A stretch of DNA of 64,000 bases from an uncultured Gammaproteobacteria bacterium (GTDB taxonomy: Bacteria; Patescibacteriota; Microgenomatia; UBA8517): NCBI GenBank assembly GCA_964600575.1, contig CAZRJH010000005.1, positions 8,040 to 72,039 of the forward strand, written 5' to 3'. Position 1 is the first letter of the stretch; each line of letters opens with the position of its first letter. Of the stretch, positions 4,579-62,271 are shown in pieces. The translations under genes were made by a program, and so were the position numbers. The notes beneath the pieces are model-generated. The model saw nothing but the letters and a program-made list of their open reading frames with translations. It ran no database searches and had not been told where the DNA came from.

Positions 4579-4984
4579 CCATGCTTCTGGCTGTTCCTTC
4601 TACTATTTTCATTGCTGCTTCTACATTTTTTGTGTTCAAGTCGTCCATCTTATCTTCTGCAATAGCTTTAACTTGGTCTTTTGTAAGTTTTCCGGCTGTT
4701 TCTCTGGGGGTTTTACCTGAACCCTTTTCTATGCCTAAAGTCTTTTTGATCATGTCTGCGACAGGGGCTTTTTTGATTACAAAATCAAAACTTCTGTCTT
4801 CGTAGATTGTAATAACGGCGGGAACAACTTGTCCGCGCATATCTTTGGTTTTGTCGTTATATGCCTTAACAAACTCCATGATGGCTACACCATGCTGACC
4901 AAGAGCTGTTCCAACCGGAGGGGCGGGAGTTGCCTCTGCAGCCTTAAGGTTGATTTTTACGACTACTTTGATTTTTTTTGCCAT
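4562..4984 (-). CDS. rplK: 50S ribosomal protein L11
   Basis: Internal Met gives MAKKIKVVVKINLKAAEATPAPPVGTALGQHGV, the L11 signature. The ORF-track start at 5089 is an over-extension. Confidence 0.9.
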   Translation of the reverse strand: MAKKIKVVVKINLKAAEATPAPPVGTALGQHGVAIMEFVKAYNDKTKDMRGQVVPAVITIYEDRSFDFVIKKAPVADMIKKTLGIEKGSGKTPRETAGKLTKDQVKAIAEDKMDDLNTKNVEAAMKIVEGTARSMGVKTD

Positions 4985-5156
4985 ATTTATAAAAAGTTGG
5001 TACGCAAAAAGGGAAACTAACTGAAGTTTCGACCTTTCGACCAGCTCAAGGCTAGCTTTGCGTCTGCCACAAATTAATGTGGTATGCAAACTATATCACG
5101 CATGAGCAGAAATATCAAATGCTTAAGTTTAAAAAAACCGAGGGTTGAAGCCGAAA

Positions 5157-26640: not shown

Positions 26641-29358
26641 ATGTCTTGGCTGGTGGTAAAATTAGCCACGATGACGGAAAGCGAAAGAAAGGTCCAAATG
26701 TCCTCGGCAGACCTTAAAAGGGAGTATCCCCACGTGATCTACGAACAGGTTTCCGACTCCACAGCCTATGAAGTTTTTGTGTCCGCCTCATACAACGCAA
26801 TGGCCGCTGCCGGTTACCAGATTGCAGTCGAGGTGGAAAGCAACGAAAGACAAGGAACTAGTACCTATACAATAAGAACCAAAGAGTCAGATAGACACGA
26901 GCAGGCTTTGCAAGGAACACTCTTTTTAGGTTTAACCGAGGCCACTAAAGCTGTCTTGCTAAATGGAAATAGTTATGACAATTTAGAAGTCGAAGCGGCT
27001 GGGGTTTCCGATAAGCTCTTGCACGATTTGGTTGACGACGAGGAAATGTTTAAAGCGTTTAGGGAGTATTACACGGGACTGCGGTGGAGTACAGATCAGG
27101 AGAAACTTGTCCGCGCGGTTTTTAGATACTCTACCGAGTATAACGAAAAAGATATAAAAGACAATTTAAACGGCGGCTTTTTGGGTAGTTTGGTTTTTGA
27201 TTTGGGACTCGATTCCAAGATACCCTACGAACAAAGAAAGAACTGGTACACAGCCGACCCCGAACAAATTTTGGCTCGGCACAAAGAAATAGACTACAAA
27301 CGACTTAAGGACGCGACTTTTGCAGAATCAGAGGAAGGAAAAAGATTAAAAGCCGCCTATGCAAGAGCAGTGGGGCAGGTCACAGGTGATGCTTATTACA
27401 GGGGCGAAAGAACCATAACAGGTAAAGGAGAGGTGCTGCCAAGGCCACAAATACCGCTTTTAAAAGTTCCAATAGTTGAAGCTCTAATGATAGATGAGGT
27501 TAGTTTGGATAGGCCAAAGGCCAAGTACAATATGGGTCCAAGTGATGTTGTCGGTCTTTTGGCATATTCAAGTAGCGAAAGGGCTCATACAGCACTGGTT
27601 AAAAGTATCAACACCAGGGTTCCCAAGGATGCAAGGCATGTGTTTGATGGACCAAGTGAGTTTCAACATAAGCTGGGAAACATTTGGGACATAATTAGAG
27701 CTTACACTGAATATAAATCTTACCCCGACAAAAGAAAACTCCTTGCGGCAGATCTTACGGCGATTCTTGATGCCTACTCAAATCAGGGTGAAATTGCAGA
27801 AAGCGTTCGCGAAGGGCATTTTGAATATGTAAGAGTACACGGACAAAAATATTTTGGAGAAGGAGTGCATACTGTTAAAGAAACCGTTATCGATTTGTTG
27901 CAAGTTGCCATCGCATCGTCCGACAGCTCCCTTACCGCCAAGGCCCAGGAAGTCATGCGAAGTTATATTGGGGGCGCCGGCGGTTTAGTGGTAGACAGAG
28001 ATCCTTTGGTGCTTTCCAGGGGCGAGCTGGTATTGATTGTTTTGGATTCAATAAAAAACTTTGACCCAACGGGCAACCCGACACTTTTAAAAAATATAGC
28101 TATTGAACTCCTGGGCGGAAAAGGCAAAAGCGTTGCTGACTTGGCAGCTCTTCATATGACGGCAGTTGGGCTTAGGCAAAAACCAAATGTTTCCTTGGCA
28201 CTTAAAGAGATGCGCAGACACAGTTTTCAAATAGACGGAAAATCAAAAGAGGCAGACGTTGCTAGGGAAAAGTTCAACCAACTTACAAAACGGTCGGATA
28301 ATATTTTCGATGATATTCGTACCCAAAAGAACAAAATTCTAATCGGTTTGATAGATGATTTAATGGGCGACGGCGAGGACCCTGATAGATTAATCGAGGG
28401 ACTTATTAACAGAGTCGAAATGCGAAGTCGTGAGATTTCGGAATTGCCATCGGAATATTATGAACTAATAAGAATAGCAAAATTGCTTGGGCCGGGAGAG
28501 CCTAGAGTGAATGTAATTGCCTGGCACATGCAGAAACAGTTTGAATACATGAGCAAAGAGTCGGCGCATCTTTTGGTTCCTGTTGTTATAGATTTATACG
28601 AGGTTATTTTAGGAGAACCCGGAAATGTAATTTTCCCTAACGACTCAACTTCGCACGGCCTTTCTGCGGTGAGCGGACTGGTAAGAAGGCAGGGTAGAGA
28701 GATCTTTAAATCGGCTTCCCCCGAAGATCTACAGGTTATTCAAAACTATGTTTTAGAAATTGCCGCTCACGCTCAAAGGATCACAAACGGAGAGCTTTTA
28801 CCCCAAGATCTCGGAGAAGAAGTAGATAAGGTTGAATATAAGAAGTGGCAGCAGGAAAAGATGCAACAAATTAAATATTCACTCCAGCAACTTCAGCAAG
28901 TTGGGGAATACTACAAGGAGTTTTTGCATATAGAAGCCGTAAAAGTAAGGCCCGATGTTTATTATCCTTGGATGCTTAAACAATTGGTGCCTTTTTACAG
29001 AGCAATGCAGTTTGAAGTTTCGGAAGGAAATCGGCCAAATCATGCAGTCAGAACTCTGCATCAAACACTGGCGGATTATATAAAGAACCGCTTGGTAATT
29101 AAGGAACAGTATCCCGAAAACTTTGATGTTATAAAAGACGGCAATCTGGATACTTTCCTTTACGAGATGTATAAACAAATGGTTGTACCCTACGAAATAA
29201 AAAACAACGGAGCTGTTTGGAAAGAGGGACTAACATTTATGCACTATGCAATTTCTGGCATGCCCGAGTCTGTGGTAAAAGAAATAGAGAAAAAATATCC
29301 AAACTCCGACTTTGCTAAGTTTGTAAGAAAAGAGCACGATAGACTTCAGGATAACTAG
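26641..29358 (+). CDS. large orphan protein (905 aa), function unknown
   Basis: Uninterrupted 2.7-kb ORF; no TM, signal peptide or known catalytic motif recognised. Confidence 0.55.
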   Translation: MSWLVVKLATMTESERKVQMSSADLKREYPHVIYEQVSDSTAYEVFVSASYNAMAAAGYQIAVEVESNERQGTSTYTIRTKESDRHEQALQGTLFLGLTEATKAVLLNGNSYDNLEVEAAGVSDKLLHDLVDDEEMFKAFREYYTGLRWSTDQEKLVRAVFRYSTEYNEKDIKDNLNGGFLGSLVFDLGLDSKIPYEQRKNWYTADPEQILARHKEIDYKRLKDATFAESEEGKRLKAAYARAVGQVTGDAYYRGERTITGKGEVLPRPQIPLLKVPIVEALMIDEVSLDRPKAKYNMGPSDVVGLLAYSSSERAHTALVKSINTRVPKDARHVFDGPSEFQHKLGNIWDIIRAYTEYKSYPDKRKLLAADLTAILDAYSNQGEIAESVREGHFEYVRVHGQKYFGEGVHTVKETVIDLLQVAIASSDSSLTAKAQEVMRSYIGGAGGLVVDRDPLVLSRGELVLIVLDSIKNFDPTGNPTLLKNIAIELLGGKGKSVADLAALHMTAVGLRQKPNVSLALKEMRRHSFQIDGKSKEADVAREKFNQLTKRSDNIFDDIRTQKNKILIGLIDDLMGDGEDPDRLIEGLINRVEMRSREISELPSEYYELIRIAKLLGPGEPRVNVIAWHMQKQFEYMSKESAHLLVPVVIDLYEVILGEPGNVIFPNDSTSHGLSAVSGLVRRQGREIFKSASPEDLQVIQNYVLEIAAHAQRITNGELLPQDLGEEVDKVEYKKWQQEKMQQIKYSLQQLQQVGEYYKEFLHIEAVKVRPDVYYPWMLKQLVPFYRAMQFEVSEGNRPNHAVRTLHQTLADYIKNRLVIKEQYPENFDVIKDGNLDTFLYEMYKQMVVPYEIKNNGAVWKEGLTFMHYAISGMPESVVKEIEKKYPNSDFAKFVRKEHDRLQDN

Positions 29359-38697: not shown

Positions 38698-38947
38698 AAA
38701 TGCAAACTACTTATATATTATAACCTATTTTGAAGCTAAGTAGTTGGTTTTTTAGCAAAAAAAGACCCCGCACTCCAAAGTTCGGTGACTTCCTGGAAGA
38801 TCCAGGTGGGTGAGCTGTCACCTTCGTCTCCTAGAGTGAACTCCGCTCTCCCAAATTAAAAAAATAGTCAGAAAGTTACGACCGAACCCCTTTGTACAGG
38901 GTCAATAATAATCTAACACATTGGTGCAAATTAGCAAATATGACGAA

Positions 38948-58256: not shown

Positions 58257-59696
58257 ATGACAAGCTCCGACAGAGAACTAAGGACAATTTCTGGTCTAAG
58301 AGAAGATGGTTTTGGCGGCATGAATAGGATGCCCGACCCCGAAAAAGATGACGAAAAGCTTCAAAACGGTGAGACTCCTTATGCCAGAGGCAAAGATTGG
58401 AAGCTTCAATATGAAGGTAAAAAGGGAGCAGTCGAAGTTCTTAACGAAATTGACGATGTTTTTGACAACCCCGGTAGCGTTGACCCACTATACATAATAG
58501 AACTAGATGAATTCTTAAAGGAGAGGTTTGGAGAAGGTATCAGTTACGAAAACGGTATGGATGTTCCGGGCATAGACAGAGAAGAGCTTAAGTCTATGTA
58601 TGCGGAATGGCGAATGAAAGACGACGAATCAGACAGAGACGATAGTCGAGAAGAGAAAACAGATAAGTCGAAGCGAACCGAAAGACACTTTAAACCTGGT
58701 GGGGTTCCTATCGATTTATCAACCCAAGCGGCTCAGCATGATACGGCTGTTTCTTTGGCATTTGAGGACTTAGATCCTGTTTGGGGAGATGAAAAGACAG
58801 TTGCACACTATATATTTGGCGAAAAAGGTAAACCCGATGTTATCGCCTTCACCAATTCTGAACTTGTAGGAACTCGCAAAGGGGGTGCCGTAGCAATTGA
58901 AGTTTCAAAGTTTAATGAGGTTTTGGAGGCTTCTGATATTAAAATGCGTTTGAGAAGGCCAAAGCACGGAGATCCGACAAATGTGCAAAAAGTTTTATCC
59001 AATCTTAGGCTTGGCAAGAAAGGTTCCAGATACGGCGGTGAAAAGACTAGAATTATCTACCCTGAAAAACCCAAGGAAGACAAGAAAAAACCAGAAGCTA
59101 CTAAAACAAAAGTTGAAGCACTACAGCCTATGGAAGGCAAATTTAACATTTACATAAACGGTAAAGAATTAGATAGACTTACCAAAGATGTCCATGGCCC
59201 CGGAGCAGACGAAGCTCAGAAAAATAGAGATAGTGTTAATGATTTTGCTTATTATCTAAGTAGTGAGCAAGAAAATGTGGAGTCATTAATGTTTCTAACC
59301 GATTCTGTAGACGGCAGTGAACCCACCAAGATTAAGGCAGTAGTTCTTCAGGTTCTGGATATTCCAAAAGGTGGAACAAGGGAAGATGCCGAGAGAAAGT
59401 CGATTGTTATTCCAATTCATATATTCAACAGAGTCTTTAATAGCACCGAGCCTTATCATAAGTTTAATAAGCAAGAAAACGAAGTCGTTGGTGTGAAGTT
59501 CAGGACAAAACTTGGCAGTGGAGGTGGTTGGGAAGGTTTCATTCATCCCAAAACAAACGATGAAAACTTACAAAAGGTTATCGACAAAATGAGGTTTGAA
59601 GGAAAATCGCTTAGCTCAGATATCAAAGTTAGTATAGGACCTAGAAAAGAATACTCTCCTCAGGTTGCCGAGACTCCTGTGGCCGAGGCAGCTTAA
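58257..59696 (+). CDS. hypothetical acidic protein (479 aa)
   Basis: Long ORF between frr and rseP, Asp/Glu/Lys-rich; no motif recognised. Confidence 0.5.
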   Translation: MTSSDRELRTISGLREDGFGGMNRMPDPEKDDEKLQNGETPYARGKDWKLQYEGKKGAVEVLNEIDDVFDNPGSVDPLYIIELDEFLKERFGEGISYENGMDVPGIDREELKSMYAEWRMKDDESDRDDSREEKTDKSKRTERHFKPGGVPIDLSTQAAQHDTAVSLAFEDLDPVWGDEKTVAHYIFGEKGKPDVIAFTNSELVGTRKGGAVAIEVSKFNEVLEASDIKMRLRRPKHGDPTNVQKVLSNLRLGKKGSRYGGEKTRIIYPEKPKEDKKKPEATKTKVEALQPMEGKFNIYINGKELDRLTKDVHGPGADEAQKNRDSVNDFAYYLSSEQENVESLMFLTDSVDGSEPTKIKAVVLQVLDIPKGGTREDAERKSIVIPIHIFNRVFNSTEPYHKFNKQENEVVGVKFRTKLGSGGGWEGFIHPKTNDENLQKVIDKMRFEGKSLSSDIKVSIGPRKEYSPQVAETPVAEAA

Positions 59697-59735: not shown

Positions 59736-60836
59736 ATGCTTGTTTCGATTTTAATATTTATTCTAGTTCTCTCCATTTTGGTATTGGTTCACGAACTGGG
59801 GCATTACATAATGGCAAAACGGGCAGGTGTTTGGGTGGAGGAGTTTGGTTTTGGCCTTCCCCCCAGAATTTTTGGTAAAAAAATAGGTGAAACAATATTT
59901 TCTCTAAATGCGTTGCCCTTCGGCGGTTTTGTAAAACTTCACGGTGAAAGTACAGAGGATGGGGTAAGCGATCCCAAGCGCGCATTTTTAAATAAATCCA
60001 AAAGGCAAAGAATAGGAATAGTAATCGCGGGAGTTGTTATGAACTTTTTGTTGGCAATTTTTGCTTTTATGATTGTTTATTCGTTTTCGGGTATTCCCAG
60101 AGACACAGGGCATCTTAAAGTTATGGATATAGCGGCCGATTCTCCCGCACAAAAAGCAGGGATTGTTGTAGGGGATGAGATTACTAAAGTGGGAAAAGAT
60201 AGCATTTCAACATCCGACGGTTTTATATCAAAAGTAGGCTTGGTCAAAGGTAGAAACACACCTTTCGAAATAAAAAGAGGAGATAGTGTAATTAAAGTTC
60301 AAATGACTCCGAGAGAAACTCCTCCTCAAGGACAAGGCCCATTAGGTGTTACCGTCTCTACTGTAGAAATATATTTCCCGCCCGTTTGGCAAAGGCCGTT
60401 TTACGGGATTTATTACGGTTTTAAAGAAGCTATTTTTTGGGGTAAAACGATCGGTCTTGGGCTTTGGGATCTGGCTACAAACATATTCAATGGTAAAGCC
60501 GGTGAACAAGTTGCAGGGCCCGTCGGGATATTTGCCGTAACGACCGAAGCGGCAAAGAGCGGGGTTCTAACACTTATAAACTTTGTCGGAATACTTTCTG
60601 TTAACCTTGCGGTTTTGAATATTCTTCCTTTTCCGGCCTTGGACGGGGGAAGACTTTTGTTTATAGGAATAGAGGCCTTAATAGGTAAAAAAGTTTTGCC
60701 CAAAGTTGAATCTGCAATCCACACAGCTGGAATGATCCTACTTTTACTTTTGTTTTTAGCTATAACAATTGGCGATGTTAAAAAGCTTATCATGGCGGGC
60801 GGGGTGGAAGGGTTTATAAAAACCATGATTAAGTAA
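59736..60836 (+). CDS. rseP: RIP metalloprotease RseP (M50 with PDZ)
   Basis: HELGHYIMAK in TM1, PDZ-like middle region, C-terminal LDGG motif. Confidence 0.85.
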   Translation: MLVSILIFILVLSILVLVHELGHYIMAKRAGVWVEEFGFGLPPRIFGKKIGETIFSLNALPFGGFVKLHGESTEDGVSDPKRAFLNKSKRQRIGIVIAGVVMNFLLAIFAFMIVYSFSGIPRDTGHLKVMDIAADSPAQKAGIVVGDEITKVGKDSISTSDGFISKVGLVKGRNTPFEIKRGDSVIKVQMTPRETPPQGQGPLGVTVSTVEIYFPPVWQRPFYGIYYGFKEAIFWGKTIGLGLWDLATNIFNGKAGEQVAGPVGIFAVTTEAAKSGVLTLINFVGILSVNLAVLNILPFPALDGGRLLFIGIEALIGKKVLPKVESAIHTAGMILLLLLFLAITIGDVKKLIMAGGVEGFIKTMIK

Positions 60837-60849
60837 TTTGACAGAAAAC

Positions 60850-61031
60850 ATAGCATTGATATAATGAGCTTTGCAGGCAAAGAAGGAGCCCCACTCCGGA
60901 GCCTTAGGACAACCTTTTTGATAGGCCCAAAGCAACAAAGGCCAAAAAGAGTATAAATTAAGGTGGTACCACGGTTCGGCTAGCTCACCGCAAGCTTCAC
61001 CCGTCCTTAGAAGGAGCGGGTTTTTTGTTTT
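60850..61031 (+). promoter_or_regulatory. T-box riboswitch leader with intrinsic terminator upstream of proS
   Basis: Conserved T-box sequence AAATTAAGGTGGTACCACGG at about 60955..60974. Overlapping terminator hairpin cccgtcctt/aaggagcggg followed by TTTTTTGTTTT, directly before the proS start. Confidence 0.6.
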
Positions 61032-61041
61032 AAAAAACTAT

Positions 61042-62271
61042 ATGAAATTTTCTGAAACATTTGTAAAAACTCTTAAAGAAGCGCCAAAAGACGCCGAAAC
61101 AGTTAATCACAAACTTCTTGTGAGGGGTGCTTATGTAAGACAACTTATGGCGGGTGTTTATACATACCTTCCGTTGGGTTTAAGGGTTCTTAACAAAATC
61201 TCTCAGATTGTACGCGAAGAAATGAACAGTGTGGGCGGACGCGAAGTTCTAATGCCTTTAATGCACCCGGCCGCAAATTGGAAACAAACTGGGGGTTGGG
61301 ACAATATAGATGTTTTGTTTAAAGTTAAAAGCAGAACTAAAAAAGATTACGCTTTAGCGCAAAGTCACGAAGAGGTTGTTACTCCGTTGGCCAGGGAGTT
61401 TGTTCATACCCACAAAGATCTTCCTTTGGCAATTTATCATATTCAGTGGAAGTTTAGAGACGAGCTAAGGAGTAAATCCGGAATCCTAAGAGGACGAGAG
61501 TTTTTAATGAAAGACCTTTACAGCTGGCACCTAAATCAGGCCGATTTCGAAGATTATTATAAAAGAGTTAAGGAGGCTTACTTGCGTGTTTTCAAAAGAT
61601 TGGGTTTAACTGCTAAAGTAACGGAAGCTTCCGGGGGTGCCTTTTCGGAGAAGATTTCTTACGAGTTTGAAGTCCTAACAAATGCAGGTGAGGCAAATAT
61701 TCTTTACTGTAGTGAATGTGATTACTGTGTGAATGTTGACGATATAGATAAATACTCGGAGGGGGATTCCTGTCCGGGATGCGCTAAATCTAATCTCAAA
61801 TCAGCAAAAGCTGCCGAAGTCGGAAATGTTTTTGATTTAGGACAAAAATACACAAAAGCCTTTAACTTTTTAGTGACAAACGAAAAAGGAGAGAATGTTT
61901 ATCCGATAATGGGTTGCTACGGAATCGGAATAAGTAGAACAATGGGAGTTTTAGTAGAAGAGTTTAATGACGAAAAAGGAATTGTTTGGCCAAAATCTAT
62001 TGCTCCTTACGATGTTTATTTAATAGATCTTCCCGGTGCAAAAGAACCGGCAAAACTTTACGATTCATTACAAAAGGCAGGGGCAGATGTGTTGTGGGAC
62101 GATAGAGACATTACGGCGGGTGCCAAATTCGGAGACGCAGATCTTTTGGGAATCCCTGTACGACTTGTTGTCTCGGGCAAAACAGGGGATATGGTTGAGT
62201 GGAAAGATAGAACTTCTGACAAAACCGAATTAATTAGTATAGAAGAGGTTGTTAATCGCCTGAGCAAATAA
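61042..62271 (+). CDS. proS: prolyl-tRNA synthetase (short bacterial-type without INS editing domain, with a Cys4 insertion)
   Basis: Class II motifs (FRDE...RGREF, GCYGIGISR); Cys cluster CSECDYC...CPGC. Confidence 0.9.
   Translation: MKFSETFVKTLKEAPKDAETVNHKLLVRGAYVRQLMAGVYTYLPLGLRVLNKISQIVREEMNSVGGREVLMPLMHPAANWKQTGGWDNIDVLFKVKSRTKKDYALAQSHEEVVTPLAREFVHTHKDLPLAIYHIQWKFRDELRSKSGILRGREFLMKDLYSWHLNQADFEDYYKRVKEAYLRVFKRLGLTAKVTEASGGAFSEKISYEFEVLTNAGEANILYCSECDYCVNVDDIDKYSEGDSCPGCAKSNLKSAKAAEVGNVFDLGQKYTKAFNFLVTNEKGENVYPIMGCYGIGISRTMGVLVEEFNDEKGIVWPKSIAPYDVYLIDLPGAKEPAKLYDSLQKAGADVLWDDRDITAGAKFGDADLLGIPVRLVVSGKTGDMVEWKDRTSDKTELISIEEVVNRLSK

What the first reader, a model, noticed from the sequence alone, without database searches (positions are those of the whole stretch)
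60850..61031. T-box riboswitch controlling proS in a reduced, CPR-like genome
The 205-nt leader upstream of proS has the canonical T-box sequence AAATTAAGGTGGTACCACGG overlapping a strong intrinsic terminator (cccgtcctt/aaggagcggg plus a T-run). This is the classic antiterminator/terminator switch. The UGGU in the T-box bulge predicts pairing with an ACCA acceptor end, that is a discriminator A. That fits bacterial tRNA-Pro. T-boxes are mainly a Firmicutes feature, so one in this type of genome is worth noting.
Basis: partly seen in the sequence, partly recalled or inferred. Interest (0 to 1): 0.6.

Follow-up and report, generated by a model that had tools for sequence, protein, structure and literature searches.

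The report
Minimal proline T-box leader in CPR
The leader in front of the prolyl-tRNA synthetase gene of this ultrasmall (CPR) bacterium looks like a real tRNA-sensing T-box transcription switch, but a stripped-down one whose proline codon sits in the tip of a tiny hairpin, a design so far described only for translation-controlling T-boxes of Actinobacteria.

Summary
A 205-nt spacer lies between rseP and proS. It holds a perfect sigma-70 promoter, a T-box sequence (AAGGUGGUACCACG), an antiterminator with a UGGUACC bulge, and a mutually exclusive intrinsic terminator plus U-run.

RF00230 scores only 25.3 bits against a gathering score of 93, because about 76 nt of Stem I are missing. What remains is a K-turn base, a 4-bp helix and a 5-nt terminal loop C-CCC-A.

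Comparative data rescue the call. I found seven distinct leaders in three CPR ProRS clades, all upstream of proS operons. All have CCY plus a purine in that terminal loop, compensatory changes in Stem I and the antiterminator, and strong terminators. Against its 88% relative the window leader is 90% identical, while proS third-codon positions are 50% identical. Fourteen of the 15 substitutions fall outside the helices.

The element is patchy: about 4% of CPR proS loci have it, and sisters at 82–88% ProRS identity lack it.

It is best read as a tRNA-Pro-sensing transcription attenuator with an ultrashort Stem I, a new variant of a known kind. Matching to tRNA-Pro (anticodon, A73) could not be tested.

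The parts
60838..60865 (+). Sigma-70 promoter: -35 TTGACA (60838-43), 16-nt spacer, extended -10 TGaTATAAT (60857-65). It starts 2 nt after the rseP stop codon.
   Evidence: 12 of 12 hexamer matches. The hexamers are conserved in L161 while the spacer has diverged.
60869..60882 (+). Perfect 14-bp palindrome CTTTGC-AG-GCAAAG. It straddles the predicted transcription start, and its 3' arm is the K-turn 5' strand. Unexplained.
   Evidence: L161 reads CACTGC-AG-GCAGTG, so two symmetric compensatory changes keep the palindrome.
60877..60902 (+). Ultrashort Stem I: C-stem GC/GC (60877-78 with 60901-02), 3-nt bulge AAA, K-turn G.A pairs (GA 60882-83 and GA 60899-60900), 4-bp helix GGAG/CUCC (60885-88 with 60894-97), terminal loop CCCCA (60889-93).
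   Evidence: Rfam's own alignment replaces 76 model positions with 5 nt.
60890..60893 (+). Proposed Specifier: CCC (Pro) plus the trailing purine A, inside the terminal loop.
   Evidence: CCY plus a purine in the equivalent loop of all 7 leaders. Only about 8-9% of background hairpins of the same motif have it.
60906..60915 (+). Small hairpin AGG-ACAA-CCU. It occupies the position of Stem II, but no S-turn is recognisable.
   Evidence: Analogous 5-6 bp hairpins with GAYAA-type loops and compensatory changes occur in L095, L018 and L013 (sequence reading).
60924..60943 (+). Hairpin GGCC-(12 nt)-GGCC. By position it is equivalent to Stem IIA or Stem III; the assignment is uncertain.
   Evidence: The stem is invariant in L161 and two loop substitutions occur.
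60944..60958 (+). Purine-rich linker AAAAAGAGUAUAAAU preceding the T-box. No hairpin directly abuts the T-box here.
   Evidence: Stem III aligned with 0 nt. Compare GAGAAGUAAG and AAGAAGUAAG in L018 and L095.
60959..61009 (+). Antiterminator: helix A1 (60959-63 with 61005-09), 7-nt T-box bulge UGGUACC (60964-70), helix A2 (60971-74 with 61001-04), 26-nt apical insert (60975-61000).
   Evidence: On six aligned leaders 96.3% of cells are paired against 21-59% in slid registers, and 0 of 500 shuffles reach the covariation score.
60975..61000 (+). Apical insert UUCGGCUAGCUCACCGCAAGCUUCAC in helix A2, about 85% identical to the insert of the distant Dojkabacteria leader L179.
   Evidence: Staphylococcal stem Sa is a precedent for a functional insertion at this place (PMC9177973).
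60999..61031 (+). Intrinsic terminator: 9-bp stem with one bulged G (60999-61021), loop UAGA, then U6-G-U4.
   Evidence: terminator -11.8 kcal/mol against -4.4 for the tRNA-free antiterminator. The stem is invariant and the loop is changed in L161.
61042..62271 (+). proS, the regulated gene: a 409-aa bacterial-type ProRS without the INS editing domain.
   Evidence: TIGR00409 434.5 bits, above its cut-off of 306.7.

Best explanation
This is a tRNA-Pro-responsive T-box transcription attenuator with an ultrashort Stem I.

Transcription starts from the consensus promoter at about 60872. The nascent leader first folds a K-turn-based hairpin whose 5-nt terminal loop presents CCC followed by A. I infer that this loop pairs, loop to loop, with the anticodon of tRNA-Pro, most simply the GGG isoacceptor. 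No tRNA-elbow platform exists.

If the bound tRNA is uncharged, its 3' ACCA end pairs with the UGGU of the T-box bulge. That stabilises the weak antiterminator (60959-61009), RNA polymerase reads through, and proS is transcribed. If the tRNA is charged or absent, the more stable terminator (60999-61021 plus the U-run) forms and transcription stops. ProRS synthesis therefore rises when tRNA-Pro charging falls.

Shown: the sequence and structure elements, their mutual exclusivity, their conservation and covariation, and the match between codon and gene.

Inferred: tRNA binding, the loop-loop decoding geometry, and the read-through response.
For: - The T-box core, the bulge, helices A1 and A2, and the overlapping terminator are all present.
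- All seven leaders have strong terminators, -10 to -23 kcal/mol plus U6-U8, that share a strand with the antiterminator.
- In the window the terminator is -11.8 kcal/mol and the tRNA-free antiterminator -4.4, the polarity a T-box needs.
- RF00230 hits are sub-threshold but significant for relatives: L068 52.8 bits (E 5.8e-9), L095 41 bits, L013 39 bits. In them the K-turn, Stem II, IIA/F-box, Stem III and discriminator align, and only the upper Stem I is missing.
- All seven leaders lie upstream of proS or a proS operon.
- All carry CCY plus a purine in the terminal loop: CCC in six, obeying the 'C-rule' (PMC7778990), and CCU in one. The background rate of that loop content is about 0.09 per hairpin.
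- Three of the four Stem I helix positions show compensatory changes, and the K-turn C-stem changes G-C to A-U in L179.
- Antiterminator covariation beats all 500 shuffles.
- There is purifying selection. The leader is 90.3% identical to L161 against 49.5% at proS third-codon positions, and 14 of 15 substitutions fall outside helices and motifs (Fisher p = 0.0019).
Against: - RF00230 does not reach its gathering score in any of the seven leaders (23-53 bits against 93).
- The published generalisation is that transcriptional T-boxes require the long Stem I with the elbow-docking motif for fast co-transcriptional capture (PMC7583486). That motif is absent here.
- In the window itself no Stem II S-turn or IIA/B pseudoknot, which compensate in Actinobacteria, can be recognised.
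- No tRNA-Pro gene was available, so neither the anticodon match nor A73 has been verified.
- The element is missing from sister lineages at 82-88% ProRS identity. It is therefore dispensable.
- Only about six independent sequences support the comparative statistics.
Confidence: 0.77

Rival explanations
1. It is a decaying T-box relic. The discriminator and terminator survive as a constitutive or leaky attenuator or transcriptional insulator between rseP and proS. The truncated Stem I no longer recognises tRNA.
For: Stem I has lost the platform regarded as essential for transcriptional T-boxes. The Rfam score is low. Presence is patchy, with loss in close relatives. The genome is reduced.
Against: The same truncated design recurs in three ProRS clades with compensatory changes in the short helix and an unbroken CCY-purine loop. 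The leader is far more conserved than synonymous sites, and substitutions avoid helices, bulge and specifier. A relic would not keep a perfect promoter, K-turn, bulge and specifier at once.
Confidence: 0.1
2. It is a generic sensor of uncharged tRNA. Only the UGGU-ACCA contact is used, and the Stem I hairpin is structural. The switch would then respond to any uncharged tRNA with discriminator A rather than specifically to tRNA-Pro.
For: There is no elbow platform and, in the window, no recognisable Stem II S-turn to inspect the codon-anticodon helix. A 3-bp loop-loop contact on its own is weak.
Against: CCY plus a purine is conserved in every leader although loop length and flanks vary (5-7 nt), and all members regulate proS. 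The chance expectation is about 0.09 per hairpin.
Confidence: 0.07
3. Control is translational or dual. The 3' hairpin sequesters the ribosome-binding site, as in actinobacterial ultrashort ileS T-boxes, rather than terminating transcription.
For: All previously described ultrashort Stem I T-boxes are translational. In L095 the terminator 3' strand GGAGGUG lies 9 nt before the AUG, and in L013 the U-run abuts the AUG, so a dual effect is possible there.
Against: In the window the hairpin is followed by U6-G-U4, a standard intrinsic terminator. Its AAGGAG lies about 25 nt from the AUG, too far to act as a Shine-Dalgarno sequence. No Shine-Dalgarno sequence precedes proS here or in relatives that lack the leader. 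All seven leaders have G+C-rich stems followed by U6-U8.
Confidence: 0.05

Closest known systems
Canonical (class I) transcriptional T-box leaders, Rfam RF00230, for example Bacillus tyrS and glyQS and the Firmicutes proline T-boxes
   Same: The 14-nt T-box sequence; the antiterminator with a 7-nt bulge beginning UGGN; helices A1 and A2; a mutually exclusive intrinsic terminator; a K-turn at the base of Stem I; a codon for the cognate amino acid followed by a purine; the C-rule; an aaRS gene downstream.
   Different: The Specifier is in a 5-7 nt terminal loop, not an internal loop with an S-turn. The whole upper Stem I is absent (AG bulge, distal loop, elbow-docking platform; about 76 model positions). 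In the window no Stem III abuts the T-box, and Stem II and IIA/B cannot be recognised. The score is 25 bits against a gathering score of 93. The host is CPR/Patescibacteria.
Actinobacterial 'ultrashort'/short Stem I ileS T-boxes (class II, translational; Sherwood et al. 2015; the Mtb ileS structures)
   Same: Stem I is truncated and lacks the elbow platform. tRNA is read through the anticodon and the NCCA end only. In L013 and L018, F-box-like CGUCA and CGUUA sequences follow a IIA-like hairpin, as in Mtb ileS (CGUCA).
   Different: Those leaders sequester the ribosome-binding site, whereas this one has a G+C-rich hairpin plus a U-run, that is, transcription termination. They regulate ileS and this one proS. 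They occur in Actinobacteria and this one in CPR. The compensating Stem II S-turn and IIA/B pseudoknot, essential there, are not evident in the window. I could not read Sherwood 2015 itself, so the exact loop geometry of its ultrashort class is quoted from reviews and from memory.
Staphylococcal glyS T-box with the stem Sa insertion (PMC9177973)
   Same: A lineage-specific insertion in helix A2 of the antiterminator/terminator domain. There it modulates tRNA discrimination.
   Different: The sequence is unrelated. Stem Sa T-boxes have a full-length Stem I. The function of the CPR insert is untested.

Membership tests
T-box leader (RF00230 sensu lato) | Conserved 14-nt T-box sequence (AGGGUGGNACCGCG) | tested here: met
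   AAGGUGGUACCACG at 60960-60973, 12 of 14 identical to the consensus quoted in PMC11297988. Present in all 7 leaders.
T-box leader (RF00230 sensu lato) | Antiterminator with a 7-nt bulge starting UGGN, flanked by helices A1 and A2 | tested here: met
   96.3% of cells paired, 3 pairs changed on both sides, 0 of 500 shuffles reach the covariation score.
T-box leader (RF00230 sensu lato) | Mutually exclusive, more stable terminator (or sequestrator) that shares a strand with the antiterminator | tested here: met
   -11.8 against -4.4 kcal/mol in the window. Seven of seven leaders have terminators with U6-U8.
T-box leader (RF00230 sensu lato) | K-turn (GA motif) at the base of Stem I | tested here: met
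   GC-AAA-GA ... GA-GC. Six of the 7 leaders fit this. L018 has GG and an extra mini-hairpin instead.
T-box leader (RF00230 sensu lato) | Specifier codon matching the regulated gene's amino acid, followed by a purine | tested here: met
   CCC+A in the window, and CCY plus a purine in 7 of 7 leaders, all upstream of proS. The background rate is about 9%.
T-box leader (RF00230 sensu lato) | Specifier presented in an internal Specifier Loop with an S-turn | tested here: not met
   The codon sits in a 5-7 nt terminal loop.
T-box leader (RF00230 sensu lato) | Distal Stem I platform (AG bulge plus distal loop) that docks the tRNA elbow | tested here: not met
   76 model positions are replaced by 5-8 nt in Rfam's own alignments.
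T-box leader (RF00230 sensu lato) | Stem II S-turn and Stem IIA/B pseudoknot with F-box (absent in glycine T-boxes) | tested here: inconclusive
   Short Stem II-like hairpins with compensatory changes, and IIA-like hairpins followed by CGUCA or CGUUA, occur in L013 and L018. In the window only two short hairpins are present, and neither an S-turn nor a pseudoknot can be supported.
T-box leader (RF00230 sensu lato) | Stem III directly 5' of the T-box | tested here: inconclusive
   Present in L013, L068 and L179. In the window Rfam aligns 0 nt. The GGCC hairpin, 15 nt upstream, may be its equivalent.
T-box leader (RF00230 sensu lato) | Score at or above Rfam's gathering score | tested here: not met
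   25.3 bits against 93 for the window, and 23-53 bits for the other six.
T-box leader (RF00230 sensu lato) | UGGN pairs with the NCCA of the cognate tRNA, and the anticodon pairs with the Specifier | not testable with these tools
   No tRNA-Pro gene is in the window or in the 181 loci. The collection scans and contig look-ups were exhausted.
Class II (translational, actinobacterial ileS) T-box | Truncated Stem I without the elbow platform | tested here: met
Class II (translational, actinobacterial ileS) T-box | Expression platform sequesters the Shine-Dalgarno sequence and has no intrinsic terminator | tested here: not met
   A G+C-rich hairpin plus U6-G-U4. Its AAGGAG lies about 25 nt from the AUG.

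The most novel reading that the evidence does not exclude
These leaders define an undescribed third architectural class of T-box: transcription-terminating, yet with an ultrashort Stem I. That hairpin would be an anticodon-arm-like 7-nt loop (UU-CCC-AG) that reads tRNA-Pro by a loop-loop kiss, with no elbow docking. This contradicts the current view that co-transcriptional T-boxes need the elbow platform for fast tRNA capture. The class would be confined to, and patchily exchanged among, CPR/Patescibacteria as a compact promoter-plus-leader cassette inserted between rseP and proS. Its conserved A2 apical insert, which in L179 contains an ACCA acceptor-end mimic, would add a further, unknown regulatory layer.
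Probability: 0.35. Interest if true: 0.75.

Novelty: new variant of a known kind. Interest (0 to 1): 0.6.

Why it matters
T-box reviews draw a sharp line (PMC7583486). Transcriptional T-boxes need the long Stem I with its elbow-docking platform, because the tRNA must be captured within the short co-transcriptional window. Only translational actinobacterial T-boxes get by with short or ultrashort Stem I.

A conserved, selected, terminator-type T-box with only a 4-bp Stem I helix and a terminal-loop codon would break that rule. It would be the smallest natural tRNA-decoding module for a transcriptional riboswitch, useful for mechanism and for engineering.

It also shows that CPR bacteria, whose gene regulation is called 'virtually unknown' (PMC11665869), use tRNA-sensing riboswitches that standard annotation cannot see (23-53 bits against a gathering score of 93). 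They use it on a gene tied to an amino acid that, as I recall, these reduced bacteria are thought to take from their hosts rather than make; I did not check this here.

The presence/absence polymorphism among close relatives offers a natural experiment on the gain and loss of riboswitches.

Tried and rejected
- The Rfam gathering-threshold scan of the window gave no T-box, only 4 tRNAs.
- A strict T-box regex missed L068 and L179, whose bulge reads UGGUAAC. The covariance model R1 recovered them.
- A looser regex sweep gave no further true members.
- R1 hits at L005 (- strand, inside a gene) and at window 4934-5071 were rejected as false positives.
- L180/L181 have a 294-nt gap before proS but no T-box.
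- The search for tRNA-Pro in the window and all loci, with ARAGORN and Rfam, found none.
- No other aaRS was found among the 10 further large window ORFs scanned with Pfam, and there was no other T-box-like hit window-wide at E <= 1.
- MAFFT alignments of whole leaders mis-registered L013 and all the 3' strands. I therefore specified helices explicitly or used Infernal's alignment, keeping only the discriminator.
- The K-turn-plus-hairpin motif proved non-specific on its own, with about 150 distinct background sites in 2 Mb. I used it only to estimate the background rate of CCN-purine loops.
- An attempt to assign a IIA/B pseudoknot in the window found only an untestable UUUUG/CAAAG option.
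- A tRNA-synthetase operator (anticodon-arm mimic, as in thrS) was rejected, because the loop carries the codon CCC and not a Pro anticodon.
- No target-site duplication or other insertion scar was found at the junctions when compared with relatives that lack the leader.
- Sherwood 2015 and 2018 are not held in the library.

Full report
**What is in the sequence**

The rseP (M50 peptidase) ORF ends at 60836 and proS starts at 61042. The proS product is a 409-aa bacterial-type ProRS without the INS editing domain (TIGR00409 434.5 bits).

The 205-nt spacer opens, 2 nt after the rseP stop, with a 12/12 sigma-70 promoter with an extended -10: TTGACA-16-TGaTATAAT, 60838-60865.

I laid the antiterminator out base by base:
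- Helix A1: 60959-63 with 61005-09.
- Bulge: UGGUACC, 60964-70.
- Helix A2: 60971-74 with 61001-04.
- Apical insert: 26 nt, 60975-61000.

The terminator is A-CCCG-UCCU [UAGA] AGGA-(G)-CGGG-U at 60999-61021, followed by U6-G-U4. Its 5' strand is the antiterminator's 3' strand, so the two folds exclude each other. Evaluated on the same 67 nt, the terminator is -11.8 kcal/mol and the tRNA-free antiterminator -4.4.

RF00230 does not reach its gathering score. Nothing appears at the gathering threshold. The score is 25.3 bits against 93, with E = 6.8e-4 on 321 nt and E = 0.13 window-wide.

The alignment shows why. The K-turn base and the discriminator align well, but 76 model positions, the Specifier Loop and the whole upper Stem I, are replaced by 5 nt, and Stem III is aligned with 0 nt. 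What is left of Stem I is GC-AAA-GA-A-GGAG-[CCCCA]-CUCC-G-GA-GC (60877-60902). That is a K-turn, a 4-bp helix and a terminal loop holding CCC followed by A.

**Comparative evidence**

I fetched 181 loci. Of these, 160 came from the genome and metagenome scans anchored on ProRS. A further 21 came from contig look-ups of close relatives. All relatives are Patescibacteria/CPR, and the window is nearest to Woesebacteria (72%).

A regex, a covariance model built from the window lineage (R1) and a looser sweep together found seven distinct leaders:
- The window and L161-163 (ProRS 88% identical to the window).
- L095 and L013 (Curtissbacteria/Levybacteria-like, 62% identical to each other).
- L068, L018 and L179 (L068's lineage is Dojkabacteria; L068 and L018 are 66% identical).

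All are on the proS strand, directly upstream of proS or of a short operon ending in proS. In L013 the operon is tRNA_bind then proS. In L095 it is a 91-aa ORF, tRNA_bind, then proS. In L179 it is a 242-aa ORF then proS. R1 E-values for the distant members range from 8e-9 to 1e-4. RF00230 gives 23-53 bits, up to E = 5.8e-9 for L068, always below 93.

For L068 and L013, Rfam's alignment places the K-turn, Stem II, IIA/F-box (CGGAUCC..AACCGUCA), Stem III and the discriminator normally. Again it replaces the 76 upper-Stem-I positions, here by 7-8 nt. The truncation is therefore a shared, defining feature, not damage in one sequence.

**The Specifier**

The terminal loops are:
- C-CCC-A in the window and L161.
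- UUU-CCC-G in L095.
- UU-CCC-AG in L068, L018 and L179.
- CU-CCU-A in L013.

CCY followed by a purine is the only triplet family common to all, and it is a proline codon in front of proS. Six of the seven end in C, the 'C-rule' of T-box specifiers (PMC7778990).

A loose K-turn-plus-hairpin motif occurs about 150 times in the 2 Mb scanned. Only about 8-9% of those loops contain CCN-purine, so six independent leaders all having it is roughly a 5e-7 event.

The helix under the loop shows G-C/A-U, G-C/A-U/U-A and G-C/A-U/U-A at three of its four positions, with every pair canonical. The K-turn C-stem changes G-C to A-U in L179.

**The discriminator**

On Infernal's alignment of six leaders (the window itself was not among the sources, so L161 stands in for its lineage), the nine A1/A2 pairs are 96.3% paired, against 21-59% in slid registers. 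Three pairs change on both sides, and 0 of 500 shuffles reach the covariation score.

All seven leaders have terminators of -10 to -23 kcal/mol followed by U6-U8, each re-using the antiterminator 3' strand.

**Selection**

Against its 88% relative L161, the transcribed leader (154 nt) is 90.3% identical. proS is 76.8% identical overall and 49.5% at third-codon positions, and the promoter spacer and post-terminator sequence have diverged.

Fourteen of the 15 substitutions lie in the 86 positions outside helices, bulge, specifier and K-turn. One lies in the 68 annotated positions, at the outermost A1 pair (Fisher p = 0.0019).

**Mechanism**

The best-supported reading is a tRNA-Pro-sensing transcription attenuator.
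- Shown: all cis elements, their exclusivity, their covariation, and the codon-gene match.
- Inferred: the terminal loop pairs with the tRNA-Pro anticodon (GGG would read both CCC and CCU), and an uncharged ACCA end pairs with UGGU to hold the antiterminator.

The 7-nt loops UU-CCC-AG have the layout of an anticodon loop (pyrimidine, U, triplet, purine, N). I therefore suggest a loop-loop kiss, which is my inference and untested.

The window has no Shine-Dalgarno sequence near the AUG, and neither do relatives that lack the leader. Control there is transcriptional. In L095 the terminator 3' strand GGAGGUG sits 9 nt from the AUG, so a dual effect is possible in that lineage.

**Comparison with what is known**

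The discriminator half is canonical class I. The decoding half resembles the short or 'ultrashort' Stem I of translational actinobacterial ileS T-boxes, which lack elbow docking and rely on Stem II and the IIA/B pseudoknot (PMC7583486, PMC12990946, PMC11297988).

[quoted passage not shown] The CPR leaders combine the two halves the other way round. In the window the compensating Stem II/IIA-B elements cannot even be recognised. Only two short hairpins are present, at 60906-15 and 60924-43.

The 26-nt insertion in A2 has a precedent in staphylococcal stem Sa (PMC9177973).

I found no paper in the held library that links T-boxes with CPR/Patescibacteria. A 2024 perspective calls regulation in these bacteria virtually unknown (PMC11665869). 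I could not read Sherwood 2015. I also cannot exclude that canonical T-boxes at other genes are already annotated in CPR genomes. I therefore rate this a new variant of a known kind, not categorically new.

**Distribution**

Only about 4% of roughly 165 distinct CPR proS loci carry the leader. Sisters lack it:
- Relatives of the window at 82% ProRS identity have a 6-7 nt rseP-proS gap.
- Relatives of L095 at 86-88% run rseP straight into tRNA_bind-proS.
- Three of the four other Dojkabacteria ProRS lineages sampled have gaps of 1-49 nt with no leader directly before proS. One of these three, L179, carries its leader further upstream, ahead of the 242-aa ORF. The fourth (L180/L181) has a 294-nt gap but no T-box.

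Leader sub-features are mosaic with respect to the ProRS tree. Stem III and an extra GCUG hairpin are shared by L013 and L068. The A2 insert is shared by the window and L179. Repeated loss, or lateral exchange of a promoter-plus-leader cassette, could explain this. No insertion scar was seen.

**Unexplained**

1. A perfect 14-bp palindrome, CTTTGC-AG-GCAAAG (60869-82), begins 4 nt after the -10 hexamer and includes the K-turn 5' strand. L161 keeps it through two symmetric compensatory changes. It may be an RNA hairpin in rseP read-through transcripts that competes with Stem I, or an operator. This is unresolved.
2. The A2 apical insert is about 85% identical between the window and the distant L179, while the rest of the leader cannot be aligned. 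Its loop UCACC is complementary to the T-box GGUGG, and in L179 it reads ACCA.

**Verdict**

Confidence in the tRNA-Pro attenuator model is 0.77. The main gap is the untested tRNA match. Interest is 0.6.

Noticed in passing
window 60869-60882: A perfect 14-bp palindrome CTTTGC-AG-GCAAAG straddles the predicted transcription start and overlaps the K-turn 5' strand. The 88% relative has CACTGC-AG-GCAGTG, so two symmetric compensatory changes keep the palindrome. It could be an RNA hairpin in rseP read-through transcripts or a protein operator.
   Followed up: partly
window 60975-61000; L179 671-700: The 26-nt apical insert in antiterminator helix A2 (UUCGGCUAGCUCACCGCAAGCU...) is about 85% identical to that of a Dojkabacteria leader whose ProRS is only about 42% identical, while the rest of the leader cannot be aligned. 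Its loop UCACC is complementary to the T-box GGUGG, and in L179 it reads ACCA, like a tRNA 3' end.
   Followed up: partly
L161 5023-5230 (-); window just beyond 64000: A bona fide glmS ribozyme (RF00234, 63.8 bits, gathering score 37) lies upstream of glmS in the 88% relative. In the window the same glmS gene (SIS-domain ORF from 62308, - strand) is cut by the window end, so the ribozyme should lie just outside. T-box and glmS ribozyme flank proS convergently in this CPR lineage.
   Followed up: no
window 38761-38905 (-): A sub-threshold 6S RNA match (36.4 bits, gathering score 46.4, E = 9e-4 window-wide) lies next to the tRNA-Thr(UGU)/tRNA-Tyr(GUA) pair.
   Followed up: no
L013 2652-2984; L095 1169-1501; L168 2165-2497; L169 172-504: A 110-aa PF01588 tRNA_bind (CsaA/Trbp111-like) gene sits immediately upstream of proS in Curtissbacteria/Levybacteria-type loci, with or without the T-box. 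These ProRS lack the INS domain.
   Followed up: partly
L095 894-1169; L179 751-1479: ORFs with no Pfam match (91 aa and 242 aa) lie between the T-box leader and proS, so they would be co-regulated by tRNA-Pro charging.
   Followed up: no
L165 1994-2001; L167 1993-2001; L169 about 170; L175-L179: The leader shows presence/absence polymorphism. Relatives at 82-88% ProRS identity have rseP abutting proS (or tRNA_bind-proS) with gaps of a few nucleotides and no leader.
   Followed up: yes
window 26641-29358 (+) and 58257-59696 (+): Large ORFs of 905 aa and 479 aa have no Pfam family at E <= 0.001.
   Followed up: no
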